Part shown: piece after piece, positions 9,001 through 15,000 of the stretch
Layout of the letters: every line of letters starts with the position of its first letter
How positions within the stretch are numbered: position 1 is the first letter of the stretch
Source of the DNA: Rhina ancylostomus
Taxonomy: Eukaryota
Assembly (NCBI GenBank): GCA_030265395.1
Contig: JARFYF010000094.1
Location: 39,328,488-39,392,487 of the forward strand
Reading direction: 5' to 3'
Length of the DNA: 64,000 nt
Position numbers: made by a program

Positions 9001-12000
9001 GAATGGAGGGAGAACTGAGACAGCTCTTCAATGCAAATTCGCTTATCATTTCTAGACAAAAGATAAAGAAATACTGAGCTCTTAACAGGGATCAGTCTGT
9101 GGATCAGTATAGGAAATTGTCCACCAGAAAAGCAAATAAAACACTGAAGAATGCTGGAAATCTGAAACAAAGAGACAAAATGCTGGAAATTCTCAACAGG
9201 TCAGACAGCATCTATTGAGATAGGAACAAGAGATAGTGTCTAAACTGCACGAAGTGGGCCCAATACTCTGCCAACAGTACCCATGGACTGGATAATGGCC
9301 CATGTTAAATCTGTTTTTAAAAGGACAATCAAAACTGAACTCTGGAATTGTAGGCTAGTTAAAGGTCAGTCATTGTCATTATGACAAAAGGAATTATTGG
9401 AGCCCTATTGTATGTTTGCTTGTAAAGAGCAGAGACAATTCCAACATGCCTTTCAGAAATGGTGGTCCTCCTTAATCAACTTTTTTGAAGAGATCGTAAC
9501 ATTGGTTGCTTCAGGTAATATTGTGCATCGTGATTTTCAAAAGTCCTTTGAAATGTTGAAATAATGTTGCATCCTGTGAGATTGCTGGTTGGATTTTTAG
9601 CAGAAATGAAAATTCAGCACAAGCAGAAGATTTATACTAATGATGAGGGTGTGCATGGGATGCACTGACTAGTGGAATTTGTTATCTGGTGGAGGACCTA
9701 AAAGTCTATTGAAGAACCATCACACATCATTATTAATCAATGACTTGGATGAAAGCACAATGGGCAAACTCGTTAAGTCTGATGTTAATAGAAAATTGTA
9801 TAAAGGAGTTAGAACATTATGCATAGTAAATCATCTGAGAATGATCTAGATACATTTGAGAAATATGCTCTGATGTGGCATGGGTTTAAGTAAAGTGATG
9901 GGAGTTAGAGGAATATCAGTTCAATGTAAGAAGCCATGGGATGAAGTTATCCTCAGAAGTAGTTCTATTTCCAGCAAGCTATCAAATAGTGCAGTAGTTG
10001 ATTGGAACATGTGTTAAGTAAGCAGTCACTACATGCCTTCGAGAAGATGTTTGATGAGTTTTAAAATAAGTTTGAACTATTTTAAGCTTTGGAAGATAAA
10101 TCAATTTTAATTGTATTAATGCAGTTAGTTAATGGAGTCTCCTGATGCATACTTGGTTGCCTTTGGGAATCAAAGTCGAACTTCCCAGAATTTTCATTTT
10201 AAAATTGAGCTAAAAATCTTACTTTCCATTTTTTCCTTTTCTGGAGATAATGTGTCTGGAGGCTGGGTTGGCAGTTAATGCAAACAGACAATATCCCAAG
10301 AGGTAGCTCAGATAATGCTCCTTGTCCTTTTTCTTAATTTCTGGCCAGATCACACAGATGGCTAGCTGCAGTGTATGTGTAGTAGACTTGAGACTTCCAT
10401 GCCCGAGCATTGCAACTGATGCAGAGTGTATTGGAGATTAGCTGACAGCGTATCCATCTTCCTGCTCCATCAATGGACTCAGTGATGAACAACTATGATC
10501 TAAAGTCTCTGACCGTAGCGATGATGAAAGCAGAGACAATCAGGCCTGTTAGAAGGGAACTGGATAGGCTCTTATGGGAAATTAATTTGCTGGGCTGTGG
10601 GGAAATAGCAGGGAAATAGTACCGAGGGGGATTGCTGTACTTGGGGTTGGCATGGACATGATGGGTAGATTGACCTCCTGTCCTATAATCGTTCTATATT
10701 ACTATGATTCTATAAAGGCACTATGTAATTGCAAATTGTTGTAAGTGATCAATCACTGCAGGAAATTCTAAGTCTAATGAACAAATGTCTATTATTCACC
10801 AACACCAAAACTTTATGTTTGCAGTGGACCACCAAGATGTTTAGCCTTAGACGCTGAGTACAGACCACCCAGGTTTGTAAAGAGTAGTGTACAGCTATGG
10901 GTAGTACTTCAAAGTGCCCTGCTTTCCAGGAGGGTTTTTTTGTTCACCTTTAGCAGTGTATGAATTGGAGATTGTGCTGCCTCATGCAGCATGTGCAGTT
11001 CCATTCAATCTGAAACAAGGCACAATGATACCCAAGAGCTGTGGCAAACAATGCTGCTTTTTCAGAGCACACAACTCTTCCAATGAGACATTAAACCATG
11101 GCCTGAACTACCTGCTCAGAAGCATGCAAAAGAACCTAGGCATCAATCAAAGATTAATGAGCTTACCCAGGATCCCAACAAACCTCCCTTCTGAATCCTG
11201 CAGAAACAGTTTAAACTGGTGTTTCAGTCATTTTGTTCAACATAAAATGAAAGATAAAAGATGTTTCAGATGGATGTGATAACACACTAGATAAAATGCT
11301 GGGTCCTTATTGCACTCTGACAATTAGATGTGTGCAACTAAAGTAGAAAATTAATGACCTCATGAGAAATGTGGTCGTTCAGATCTGGTGTTACTGCTGA
11401 TATCAAACATATTACACTGGGTCAAAAGGGCAGTTTTTGATCATAGATCTTGATATATCTGCTTGCATGTAAGCAAGTATCACTCTCATGTTCCCTTACT
11501 CTATAATCCTCCATGCTTTTTTGTTATCCCCAATCTCCCTCCCTTCCTCCTTGCCTCTTTTCTATTTTCTTCCTTATTGGACTTGCTACTTTTTCTTTTG
11601 TGTCACCATCTCCCTTTCTGTATTTCTTGTTCCAAAGGATTCCTTGTTGGTTACTATTGGGTAGCTTCCTGATTTTGCCACTTAAATCAAACAGCAGTGC
11701 TAAGCTTACAGGACTTTGATGCTATTTATTGTTTTTATCTCCTTGGCCTGGCATCCTTTTTGGGAATGCGGACACATTACAAGTTTAATAACACCCTGCA
11801 TGACAGACACTTTCCCTAAGGCCAATGGGAATAAACTGGAATATAAATTACTTCCAGAACATTCAAACCAGCTTGTGGTATACTCCTGCATCTGCCACTT
11901 TTAGCATTTGGACTGGCAACTATTAAAAGAGTAAAAAGAGAAGTTTTTAACTGTGCCAAACAAGTAAAAAGATTCACTTGATGGCTATGATTCCCTTCCT

Positions 12001-15000
12001 GCCGATGAGGGCTGCCTAAAAGCCATATTTAAACTTTTTAATTCATGCCAAGTGGAGGTAGCTCTCTAACAATAAATATGCAGATTATCAAGAATGCAAT
12101 AATTATCCAGAGTATTCACCAGGTAGGAAAGCATATCCAGGATAGAGTGAATGTGATCCAGAGTCGAATGCTGAAATGTGAATACGTAGGACCATTAGAT
12201 TAAACAAAAGCAAGGAATAGCTTAATTAGACAAAGGTGTCTGTGGTGTTATTCTCTCATAACCTAAGCATCCTGAAAATTAAGAGAAGAAAGTTATGGAA
12301 TAGAATGCATTCATGCTGGCAGATGCATTGCCACAATCTGCCCCTACAGGCCATAAGTTCTGATGGCAGTTTTCAATATCTTTTTTCTCAACAGCCATCT
12401 CTGATGTACTGAGGTTAAATCTATACAGTTATATGGCCAAAACAGCTTCAAATGGTAATTGGATACTTTTTTCTTGCGTTAAATTTCTCTATTTACTCTT
12501 TTAACAGTTGCCAGTCCAAATGCTAAAAGTGACAGATGCAGGAGTATACCACTAGCTGGTTTAAATGTACTGGAAGTAATTTGTACTCCAGTTTATTCCC
12601 ATTGGCCATTAGGAAAGTGTCTGTCACACAGGGTGCTATTAAACTTGTAACGTGTTCACATTCCCAAAAATGGATGCCTGGCCAAGGACGTAAAAATAAT
12701 AAAATGGCATCAACACCCTGTAAACTTCACACTGCTGCTTGATTTAAATGGCAAAATCAGAAAGCTACCAAATGGCAAACGCTAAGAAAGCAAGAATGAA
12801 ACAGTTGAACATCCATGGCATAAAAATCTGTCAAATAACTCAAGAGTTCCTCAGTCCATTTGTTTGGTCATTAACCCCAGTATATACAGTTAAAGATAAA
12901 ATCTATAATAGAACATAAAAAAATTCTGGAAATAACTCACTTCATATATCATCAGCGATATAATCTTAAAGTTCTTTATGATTTCAGCCCTGTGGGACAA
13001 TTTTTTTCTTTCTGTTTGTTCTCCCTCTCAGAAGTATATTTTCCATTGTGTTAAAATAATTTACATCATATTTCAGATCATGTTTTAGGTACATATTTAT
13101 GCCTTCTTTTGGTTCAGTGCAGAGTCCCAGTTTTCGCATGTTCATGTAACAGTGTGTCTCCGAGTACAGCTGTTTTCTGGTTTCCTTGTGCACACAGCAT
13201 GGCTCGTTTCTGACCTTACATCAATATTTTTCTAATTATCTTGAAGCTTGACAGCAATCTCTCAGCAGACTATTAAGGTACCTGCAGTTTTTCCATCCAT
13301 CCCAGCCTCTCCCAGCTGACTGCAATGACTCGTGCATCATAAATAAAACACATATCCCACCCCCCCAACCTACATGGGGGAGACAGACATTGGGGAATAC
13401 AGATGCACCTTGGGTTACTTGGGCTAAATGCACAGCACAGCAGAAGCTGTGCATTGTAAGTTGCTTCCTGGGCTGCACAATGGCACAGTTGGTAGAGCTG
13501 CTACCTCACAGCTCCAGTGACCTGCGTTCGATCCAGACATAGGGTGCTGTCTGTTTGGAGTTTGCACCTTTTCCCTATGACTGTNNNNNNNNNNNNNNNN
13601 NNNNNNCTCCACATTCCAAAGACATGCCAGTAGGTTTATTAGCCATAGCATAGGTGGGGTGTCAGGGGAATCAGGATGGAGTTGATGAGCATGTGAGAAT
13701 AGGTTGCAGAAGTTAAATGTGAATGGGATTGCTCTGTGAACCAGCATAGACTCAATGGGCCGAAATGGACCCTCCTATGTTGTAAGGAAATATGGAAGCA
13801 AGTCCTGGAACTGGGTACTTGACAGCACATGCGCTCGGAGAGTACTGGGTTTGATCCTTGGTCTCTGCTCTGCCAGTTGATCTCATCTTGACGAGCAATA
13901 GGAATGCTGCAAGTTATTTGAAAGAGTTGCTGGTACTTGTCACTGATCTGCGGGCAGCTCACCCATCCTAAGTGTGGATTATTTCTCCATTAGGGTTGGC
14001 GATGGAGAAGCTGCTTGGAGTGGAGGTATACTGTAGTGCGGAATTGAAGGTAGCACCTGTGTTCCTTTGGATTATACTGAAGCACTTGACTGGAAACTGG
14101 ATCCATTTACACCTGTTACTTTATGCATAAATGATGCATAAAAAGTGAAATGTGTTTATTTTGAAGCATCTGTGCCCAATCTTGTCATTCACCCTAATGC
14201 AAGTTTTGTTCCCTGCTGTATTTCTCACTGTAATGTTGTCATTATTGTCCAATGATTGTTTCAAATGTTTAACGATGGAAATTGTGTCAAAAGGTTTCCT
14301 CCCATATCCCAAAGGCATGTGGGATGGTAGGTTAGTTGACCACTGTAAATTTTCCCTGGTATAGGTGAGTGGTAGAACTTGGAGGGTGTTTATAGGAATG
14401 TGGGGAGAATGAAATGAGATTAGTGTGGTATTAGTGTAAGTGGGTGCTTGATGGCCAGCATGGACTGGATGGGCTGAAGAGCCTGTTTCAGTGCTGTATG
14501 ACTCTAATGGTTGTACTGTAGCCAATGTAAGCAAATTTTGGAAGTGAAGTACAAAGCAGAACTACTACAATATCCAGCATTGATAATCTAGGTTGAATTT
14601 CCATCCTGTTAAAATGACAAACCAGTAAAACAAAATTCTGACAAATTCCTATCTGGCTTCCTTAGGCAACTGCAACTAGTGTAGGGTCTCCTCTGTTCAA
14701 CATGCACTTTTTAAACAAAGTAATCTCTGGTCCTGTCAGGAACAAATGCAACTATCATTTGCAGCAACTGAATTGTTTGTTGTGAATTACTGGGAGCCGC
14801 TCCAGTATTATAAAAGGACAGTGCATTTCATTTTATAACATTCCTGGCATCATAAAGCAATATACAAATCGACTGAATCCAATCATGAAAACGTAAAGAT
14901 ACTTCCCAGACAACCAAACTACTCCGGAGAAATACTCACACACCAACACCAGAATGTGAAAATAATCAGCTGCCATATCTAATTGCAATTTGGATGCACC

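What the first reader, a model, noticed from the sequence alone, without database searches (positions are those of the whole stretch)
11660..12770. Unexplained ~290-bp-arm inverted repeat able to form a long RNA duplex
Seen: two arms (~11660-11951 and ~12478-12770) are reverse complements at about 85-90% identity by eye, with weaker similarity a little beyond both ends and a ~530 bp spacer. The arms match none of the LINE/SINE/Penelope families elsewhere in the window, and I see no clean target-site duplication. Established: long intramolecular duplexes in pre-mRNA are ADAR substrates, endo-siRNA sources and drivers of back-splicing. Inference: an undescribed long-TIR non-autonomous DNA transposon, a local fold-back duplication, or a hairpin maintained by arm-to-arm conversion or selection. 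This is the strongest structure in the window that the repeat annotation does not explain.
Basis: partly seen in the sequence, partly recalled or inferred. Interest (0 to 1): 0.65.

Follow-up and report, generated by a model that had tools for sequence, protein, structure and literature searches.

The report
Decaying 1.1-kb inverted repeat, unclassified relic
The two roughly 290-base arms really are reverse complements of each other, but they look like an ordinary, slowly decaying leftover of a single insertion or duplication rather than a hairpin the organism keeps for a purpose.

Summary
Arms 11656-11946 and 12481-12773 align as reverse complements over 294 columns: 260 matches, 30 mismatches, 4 one-base gaps (89.7% ungapped; BLAST E 3e-102). 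A 534-bp unique spacer separates them.

Neither arm nor spacer has another copy in the 64-kb window. The element shows no coding signal, no Rfam or tRNA match, no tandem subrepeats and no target-site duplication.

The arm differences look neutral:
- 22 transitions to 8 transversions, Kimura two-parameter (K2P) distance 0.113.
- They are scattered evenly; the longest perfect run is 26 nt against 26.6 expected.
- There is no significant gradient.

So nothing indicates conversion or selection for pairing.

Two more close inverted repeats of similar arm identity lie in the window, at 21735-22441 and 39583-41236, also unique and without duplications. The structure is therefore not exceptional locally.

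Best reading: relic of a low-copy non-autonomous DNA transposon with long terminal repeats (about 0.4). A local inverted duplication is nearly as likely (about 0.33). Copy number in the genome, the deciding test, could not be run because no eukaryotic genome or repeat library was available. Interest is low.

The parts
11656..11946 (+). Left arm (core) of the inverted repeat
   Evidence: BLASTN and gapped alignment with the reverse complement of 12481-12773: 260 of 290 ungapped columns identical. nhmmer places the arm at 11640-11951.
12481..12773 (-). Right arm (core), reverse complement of the left arm
   Evidence: nhmmer places the arm at 12476-12788.
11640..11655 (+). Weak outer extension of the left arm; may be chance
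   Evidence: 9 of 16 columns match the reverse complement of 12774-12789 (alignment). Both sides are T-rich. Nothing beyond is above shuffles.
12774..12789 (-). Weak outer extension of the right arm; may be chance
   Evidence: Same alignment.
11947..12480 (.). Unique 534-bp spacer, the loop of the potential hairpin
   Evidence: No internal inverted symmetry above shuffles. No other copy in the window. No Pfam match in its frames of 30 aa or more at E up to 0.001. No match to the element's ends in either orientation.

Best explanation
The locus is a real, non-coding inverted repeat of about 1.12-1.15 kb (11640/11656 to 12773/12789) made in a single event and decaying neutrally since. I commit to this origin as the most likely one: the relic of a low-copy, non-autonomous cut-and-paste DNA transposon with long terminal inverted repeats, in which the two arms were the element's ends and the 534-bp spacer its non-coding interior.

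It has no detectable present function. If the region is transcribed, either strand would fold into an imperfect duplex of about 290 bp that ADAR- or Dicer-type enzymes could act on. That would be a by-product, not a maintained property.

Shown: the repeat, its uniqueness in the window, the lack of coding or RNA-family signal, and the neutral pattern of differences. Inferred: the transposon origin, and the age. The K2P distance of 0.113 between arms is about 0.056 per arm. At a recalled rate of order 1e-9 per site per year, which is an assumption, that is some tens of millions of years.
For: (1) The arms are far more alike than dispersed repeats in the window. They are 88-90% identical, whereas most of the 43 self-BLAST pairs are 67-83%. 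They also have no third copy in the window by BLASTN or by profile search (next best E 0.24). Two independent insertions of one family are therefore unlikely, and a single entity is likely.

(2) Two more elements of the same build sit in the window: 21735-21881/22293-22441 (146 aligned columns, 11 mismatches) and 39583-39740/41072-41236 (158 aligned columns, 14 mismatches). Both have sharply bounded, well conserved outer ends; in the first, the outermost 42 nt are identical. Three such elements in about 62 kb fits a class of mobile elements better than three separate repair accidents.

(3) Long terminal repeats are a known build of Tc1-like elements: about 230-bp repeats each holding two sites of about 30 bp (PMC5224488, passages read). 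If the arms begin at 11657 and end at 12772, the left end is preceded by TA (11655-11656). The right end is followed by TG (12773-12774), one transition away from TA (read).

(4) The interior is non-coding, as in non-autonomous derivatives.
Against: No target-site duplication was found at any boundary within about 50 nt of the ends. The best symmetric candidate is 3 nt (AAG), and there is no repeat of 8 nt or more with one mismatch or fewer. The other two repeats show none by eye either.

The outer ends of this element are not its best conserved part: the first two 53-column bins are 79% identical, against 85% overall in the 315-column alignment.

The one candidate pair of internal direct repeats (11660-11683 and 11877-11900, 18 of 24) is not above chance: the best self-alignment scores 8 against a null of 8.1, with a fraction at or above the observed score of 0.66.

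No transposase remnant appears in any of the three spacers. The three elements share no terminal motif. The defining property of a transposon family, many copies in the genome, could not be tested.
Confidence: 0.4

Rival explanations
1. Local inverted duplication. A break or stalled fork folded back or switched template and copied about 300 bp in reverse orientation some 530 bp away from its source, leaving a unique spacer. The copies have drifted apart since.
For: No target-site duplication is expected, and none is found in this repeat or, by eye, in the other two. Arms and spacer are unique in the window. No terminal motif, subrepeat or coding remnant is present. Differences are evenly scattered, as expected for two copies of the same age. 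Fold-back inverted duplications with a single-copy spacer are documented in the human germline, though at a much larger scale: spacers of 766-70,466 bp and duplications of megabases (PMC3907307, abstract and passages read).
Against: Three such events in about 62 kb, with similar arm identity (90%, 92%, 91%), would mean a very high rate for a repair accident. The documented mechanism gives terminal, not small interstitial, duplications. The fuzzy outer boundary of this repeat is not expected for a single copying event either.
Confidence: 0.33
2. Two independent insertions of the same retroposon (SINE-like or a LINE 3' fragment) that happened to land in opposite orientation about 530 bp apart, as with inverted Alu pairs.
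For: The arm length of about 290 bp is typical of SINEs (recalled). Both inner ends run into A-rich sequence (11925-11975 and the reverse complement of 12450-12480, read).
Against: No third copy exists in the remaining roughly 61 kb, by BLASTN or by profile search. There is no tRNA, 7SL or 5S head: ARAGORN finds 0 genes, Rfam finds 0 matches at gathering score, and the 6 chance-level matches have E 0.41-4.7. Direct repeats around each arm are not above control positions: score 7 against 5.97 (fraction 0.25) and 7 against 6.18 (fraction 0.33). The same coincidence would have to hold for two other families in the window.
Confidence: 0.08
3. Internally deleted retroelement of a kind that carries inverted terminal repeats: DIRS1-like (tyrosine recombinase, no target duplication) or Penelope-like with inverted pseudo-LTRs.
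For: [quoted passage not shown] Both features fit.
Against: The internal complementary regions that define DIRS1-like elements are absent. The ends at 11580-11700 and 12730-12850 were compared with the spacer in both orientations, giving p 0.16-0.75. No reverse transcriptase, tyrosine recombinase or GIY-YIG signal appears in the 30 frames of 30 aa or more. No hammerhead ribozyme was found, which I recall as typical of Penelope-like terminal repeats.
Confidence: 0.07
4. A hairpin kept by selection or arm-to-arm gene conversion because its RNA duplex is used, for example as a source of small interfering RNAs or as an editing or back-splicing element.
For: The predicted fold is very stable: -534 kcal/mol on + and -574 on -, against -298 +/- 38 for 30 native 1150-nt controls. 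On the - strand, 16 of 22 transitions keep a G.U pair, against 6 on the + strand (binomial p 0.052).
Against: The arms have diverged by 11% with 4 bulges. The longest perfect run equals the permutation mean and there is no significant gradient, so no conversion tract is visible. The G.U asymmetry is borderline and one of several tests made; it is absent in the other two repeats (2 against 3, and 5 against 7). A strand-biased mutation process would explain it equally well. No transcript, gene or Rfam family is known here. Stability follows from any inverted repeat.
Confidence: 0.05
5. Assembly artefact: a chimeric fold-back read or a mis-joined contig.
For: The window holds 20 runs of N (2087 bases), so the assembly is fragmented. 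At 38190-38240 and 38341-38391, identical 51-nt copies flank a 100-N run.
Against: The nearest N run (13585-13606) lies about 800 bp away. Fold-back artefacts give near-identical arms with no spacer or a tiny one. Here the arms differ by 30 substitutions with a biological 22:8 transition bias and only 4 one-base indels, and they enclose a 534-bp unique spacer.
Confidence: 0.03

Closest known systems
Non-autonomous Tc1-like elements with long IR/DR-type terminal repeats (the Sleeping Beauty / Tdr1 group)
   Same: Long inverted ends of a few hundred bp around a short interior. About 230-bp repeats are described in PMC5224488 (passages). TA precedes the left end if the arm starts at 11657.
   Different: The arms are longer (291 bp or more). 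Two direct-repeat binding sites per arm are not demonstrable. The right flank reads TG, not TA. No transposase remnant is present. Copy number is unknown.
Inverted pairs of SINEs (such as inverted Alu pairs) that form editable RNA duplexes
   Same: Arm length, arm identity near 90% and a spacer of a few hundred bp. The same predicted consequence follows if transcribed (recalled knowledge).
   Different: The arms have no SINE head, no flanking repeats of their own and no other copies in 64 kb.
Fold-back inverted duplications with a single-copy spacer (PMC3907307)
   Same: Inverted copies separated by an unduplicated spacer, and no target-site duplication.
   Different: The described cases are megabase-scale terminal rearrangements with spacers of 0.8-70 kb. 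This one is a 0.3-kb interstitial copy.
DIRS1-like retrotransposons
   Same: Inverted terminal repeats and no target-site duplication (PMC3266345).
   Different: No internal complementary region and no coding capacity.
Hairpin-RNA (hpRNA) loci that yield endogenous siRNAs in Drosophila (PMC10317233; search listing and start of abstract only)
   Same: A long inverted repeat able to fold into a duplex of several hundred bp.
   Different: No evidence of transcription, of small RNAs, or of a target gene related to the arms. hpRNA arms derive from their target genes, which is recalled. These arms match nothing else in the window.

Membership tests
Tc1/mariner, IR/DR type | TA target-site duplication flanking both ends | tested here: inconclusive
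   TA at 11655-11656 lies before TTGGGTAGC. On the right, CCAAA is followed by TG at 12773-12774. A 2-nt signal has no statistical weight, and one search found no longer duplication.
Tc1/mariner, IR/DR type | Two direct-repeat transposase binding sites of about 30 bp in each terminal repeat (PMC5224488) | tested here: not met
   The only candidate is 11660-11683 against 11877-11900, 18 of 24. The best internal direct repeat is not above dinucleotide shuffles: score 8 against 8.1, fraction 0.66-0.70.
hAT, Mutator-like, P and other cut-and-paste superfamilies with duplications of 5-11 bp | Direct duplication of fixed length immediately outside the terminal repeats | tested here: not met
   All boundary pairs in 11600-11664 by 12765-12829 were scanned. 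No repeat of 8 nt or more with one mismatch or fewer was found, and the best symmetric match is 3 nt.
Any transposon family (MITE-like) | Multiple dispersed copies in the genome with the same ends | not testable with these tools
   No eukaryotic genome or repeat library is on hand. Within the window there are 0 further copies.
Foldback elements | Long terminal repeats built of tandem subrepeats | tested here: not met
   Tandem Repeats Finder gave 0 rows in 10500-14000 at minimum score 30.
DIRS1-like retrotransposons | Internal complementary regions matching the outer ends of the terminal repeats (PMC3266345) | tested here: not met
   Ends against spacer, both orientations: scores 8.5-10 against nulls of 8.5-9.0, p 0.16-0.75.
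DIRS1-like retrotransposons | Inverted terminal repeats and no target-site duplication | tested here: met
   Both features are shared with other explanations.
Penelope-like elements with inverted pseudo-LTRs | Hammerhead ribozyme motif in the repeat (recalled) and RT/GIY-YIG coding remnant | tested here: not met
   Rfam gave 0 matches at gathering score in the window and no hammerhead among 6 matches at E up to 10 in 11400-13000. There was no qualifying Pfam match in the 30 frames.
SINE pair | Pol III-type head (tRNA, 7SL or 5S), own flanking duplications, many copies | tested here: not met
   ARAGORN found 0 genes. Rfam found none. Flanking repeats are at control level. No other copy is in the window. 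Genome-wide copy number was not testable.
hpRNA / endo-siRNA locus | Transcribed long hairpin yielding 21-23 nt RNAs that match a target gene | not testable with these tools
   Only the folding potential could be computed. No expression data are on hand.

The most novel reading that the evidence does not exclude
The repeat is a vertebrate counterpart of a hairpin-RNA locus, transcribed from the - strand, where 16 of 22 transition differences remain G.U pairs. It would be kept as a duplex that feeds an RNA-interference or editing pathway. The two other inverted repeats in the window would be members of the same class of loci.
Probability: 0.04. Interest if true: 0.55.

Novelty: new member of a known kind. 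Interest (0 to 1): 0.15.

Why it matters
As it stands it matters little. It is one more unclassified repeat relic, and it should be added to the genome's repeat library so that it is not flagged again.

It would matter in two cases. A genome-wide count might show a family of long-ended elements that the annotation misses; three candidates in 64 kb hint that the class may be under-annotated in this genome. Or RNA data might show that the duplex is transcribed and processed.

Tried and rejected
- **Coding origin of the arms.** Two frames are open in both arms (66/67 aa and 64/69 aa), but differences fall evenly on codon positions (6/7/8 and 6/6/8). Pfam shows nothing.
- **Protein-level proxy for copy number.** The search for homologous proteins with the 66-aa frame found no candidate among proteins of 36-116 residues, the only lengths searched. 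The search of protein representatives with the 69-aa frame gave 2 hits (E 9.5e-11 and 5.4e-6). Both are tandem-repeat proteins whose scores are built from repeated weak stretches. I reject them as spurious and did not use them further.
- **Rfam leads.** A twister-P3 match in the right arm (19.5 bits against a gathering score of 39.9, E 0.9) and five others are all at chance level.
- **IR/DR-type subrepeats.** At chance level.
- **DIRS internal complementary region.** Absent.
- **Identity gradient.** Identity seemed to rise from 80% at the outer end to 96% at the inner end. This is not significant on permutation: p 0.12 for 315 columns and 0.17 for the core.
- **Host gene and transcribed strand.** All 559 N-free stop-to-stop frames of 45 aa or more were scanned with Pfam: 120, and 439 across. 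No family reached its cut-off. Two sub-threshold matches (Saposin E 0.005, DUF3159 E 0.01) are not credible.
- **Literature.** Searches for elasmobranch inverted repeats and for long-TIR vertebrate elements gave only general reviews, which I saw as listings only.
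Full report
**Observation.**
- The repeat finder on 10500-14000 gives three collinear inverted pairs: 190 nt at 91%, 40 nt at 85% and 97 nt at 77%.
- BLASTN of 11500-12900 against the whole window gives a single non-self hit. It joins 11656-11946 to 12773-12481 over 293 columns at 88.1% identity, E 2.8e-102.
- My gapped alignment has 294 columns: 260 matches, 30 mismatches and 4 one-base gaps, which is 89.7% over ungapped columns. 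The spacer is 534 bp.
- Outward, the similarity continues weakly for 16 nt (9 of 16 matches, both sides T-rich) and then stops. Inward, it continues for about 5 nt.
- Flanks beyond that score no better than shuffles: 11 against 13.2 +/- 1.8 for the outer flanks, and 13 against 12.5 +/- 1.7 for the inner ones.

**What the sequence is not.**
- It is not coding. The two frames that happen to stay open in both arms show no codon-position bias in the arm differences (6/7/8 and 6/6/8). None of the 30 frames of 30 aa or more in 11454-13051 reaches any Pfam cut-off; the best match has E 0.005, well below threshold.
- It is not a known RNA. Rfam gives 0 matches at gathering score in the whole window. 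At E up to 10 in 11400-13000 there are six matches with E 0.41-4.7, all at a third to a half of their gathering scores. ARAGORN finds no tRNA-like gene.
- It has no tandem subrepeats.
- Its one candidate pair of internal direct repeats (18 of 24) is not above dinucleotide shuffles.

**Copies elsewhere.** Arms and spacer have no other copy within the window.
- BLASTN with word size 9 at E 1e-3 finds none.
- The window self-BLAST lists 43 unique pairs, and this locus pairs only with itself.
- nhmmer --max with a profile of the two arms finds nothing better than E 0.24. With the spacer as query the next best is E 6.8.

Dispersed repeats in the window are mostly 67-83% identical pairwise, well below the 88-90% between the arms. 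Two independent insertions of one family are therefore unlikely, and the repeat is best seen as one entity.

The decisive count, copies in the whole genome, could not be made. 

As a proxy I searched two arm frames in the protein collections. One found no candidate among proteins of 36-116 residues. The other returned two tandem-repeat proteins whose scores come from summed weak stretches. I discard both.

**Ends.**
- No target-site duplication flanks the element. Scanning all boundary pairs within about 50 nt of either end gave nothing of 8 nt or more with one mismatch or fewer. Only a 3-nt symmetric match (AAG) turned up.
- Each arm taken alone has none either: best score 7 against control means of 5.97 and 6.18, with a fraction at or above the observed score of 0.25 and 0.33.
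- If the arms begin at 11657 and end at 12772, TA precedes the left end and TG follows the right end. That would fit a Tc1/mariner-type insertion with one later transition, but a dinucleotide carries no weight.
- The internal complementary regions that define DIRS1-like elements (PMC3266345, passages) are absent: p 0.16-0.75 for ends against spacer.

**How the arms have evolved.**
- The 30 substitutions comprise 22 transitions and 8 transversions, giving a K2P distance of 0.113.
- CpG is as depleted in the element (observed/expected 0.174) as in the window (0.176). Of the three CpG-bearing positions in the arms, two show the TG or CA form in the other arm. This is what methylated, unconstrained vertebrate-type DNA does (established knowledge).
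- Differences are scattered as chance predicts. The longest perfect run is 26 nt, against a permutation mean of 26.6.
- The apparent rise of identity from the outer to the inner end is not significant: two-sided p 0.12 for the 315-column alignment and 0.17 for the core.
- I therefore see no tract of recent gene conversion and no sign of concerted evolution.

One asymmetry remains. Of the 22 transitions, 16 leave a G.U pair in a - strand transcript and 6 in a + strand transcript (binomial p 0.052). This makes the - strand fold about 40 kcal/mol more stable. The result is borderline and is one of several tests. The other two repeats do not show it (2 against 3, and 5 against 7). A strand-biased mutation process would explain it equally well. 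I record it as unexplained rather than as evidence of selection.

**Folding potential.** The 1150-nt stretch 11640-12789 folds to -533.9 kcal/mol on the + strand and -574.3 on the - strand, with 278 and 285 arm-to-arm pairs. For comparison, 30 native N-free control stretches give -298 +/- 38, and 20 shuffles give -259 +/- 9. This follows from any inverted repeat of this size and says nothing about use.

**Surroundings.** The window holds two more close inverted repeats of the same build.
- 21735-21881 / 22293-22441: 146 aligned columns, 11 mismatches, 411-bp spacer, outermost 42 nt identical.
- 39583-39740 / 41072-41236: 158 aligned columns, 14 mismatches, spacer of about 1.33 kb.

Their arms are also unique in the window. 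Their spacers also lack Pfam matches, and their flanks show no duplication by eye. The three share no terminal motif.

No gene could be found. Of the 559 N-free stop-to-stop frames of 45 aa or more in the window, none reaches a Pfam cut-off (120 frames; the 439 frames of 45-74 aa). So whether the locus lies in an intron, and which strand is transcribed, is unknown.

Nothing suggests a human contig and I do not take it for one.

**Explanation.** A single event made the repeat, and it has decayed neutrally since. For the event itself I rank the options as follows.
- **Low-copy non-autonomous DNA transposon with long terminal repeats, about 0.40.** Three elements of the same architecture in about 62 kb, two of them with sharp and well conserved outer ends, fit a class of mobile elements better than three repair accidents. 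Long terminal repeats of a few hundred bp are a known build (PMC5224488, passages).
- **Local inverted duplication by fold-back or template switch, about 0.33.** The absence of target duplications, terminal motifs and other copies fits this directly. The documented fold-back cases differ greatly in scale (PMC3907307).
- **Two independent retroposon insertions, about 0.08.**
- **A deleted retroelement with inverted terminal repeats, about 0.07.**
- **A hairpin kept by selection or conversion, about 0.05.**
- **Misassembly, about 0.03.** Against it stand the biological substitution spectrum, the few indels, the 534-bp unique spacer and the distance of about 800 bp to the nearest N run.

**Novelty and verdict.** This is an unclassified member of a known kind of sequence: an inverted-repeat relic. 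It is the longest-armed repeat in the window but not a singular one. I score interest at 0.15. The most novel reading still open is a - strand hairpin-RNA locus of the kind described in Drosophila (PMC10317233; listing and start of abstract only), which I put at about 0.04.

**What stayed unchecked.**
- Genome-wide copy number.
- Comparison with Dfam/Repbase.
- Orthologous loci.
- RNA and small-RNA data.
- Long-read support.
- The closed collections (metagenome contigs and viral contigs).
- Supplementary files of the cited papers; none was needed for a claim made here.

Noticed in passing
window 21735-22441: A second close inverted repeat. The arms are 21735-21881 and 22293-22441 (146 aligned columns, 11 mismatches) with a 411-bp spacer. 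The outermost 42 nt are identical, and the repeat begins TCTA|CCAG, so a palindromic TA could be hidden in its end. No other copy in the window, and no Pfam match in the spacer.
   Followed up: partly
window 39583-41236: A third close inverted repeat. The arms are 39583-39740 and 41072-41236 (158 aligned columns, 14 mismatches) with a spacer of about 1.33 kb that contains a 64-nt palindrome at 39779-39841. The last 22 nt of the right arm plus 80 nt of flank (41215-41316) are duplicated in direct orientation at 41539-41640, at 90% identity.
   Followed up: partly
window 38190-38391: Identical 51-nt direct copies (38190-38240 and 38341-38391) flank the 100-N run 38241-38340. This looks like overlapping contig ends left on either side of an assembly gap.
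   Followed up: no
window 1-64000: None of the 559 N-free frames of 45 aa or more reaches a Pfam cut-off, so no reverse transcriptase, transposase or host exon is recognisable. CpG observed/expected is 0.18. Dispersed repeats are old: most pairs are 67-83% identical.
   Followed up: yes
window 11500-11640: A pyrimidine-rich (C/T) tract of about 140 nt lies directly left of the repeat, ending in ...TTCCAAAG. No counterpart lies on the right side. It may be a decayed microsatellite, or the purine-rich tail of a minus-strand element.
   Followed up: no
window 11656-12773: Transition differences between the arms are strand-asymmetric: 16 give G.U on the - strand and 6 on the + strand (p 0.052). 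The other two inverted repeats do not show this.
   Followed up: partly
window 49099-49146: A short 48-nt palindrome at 87.5% self-complementarity, seen in the window self-BLAST.
   Followed up: no
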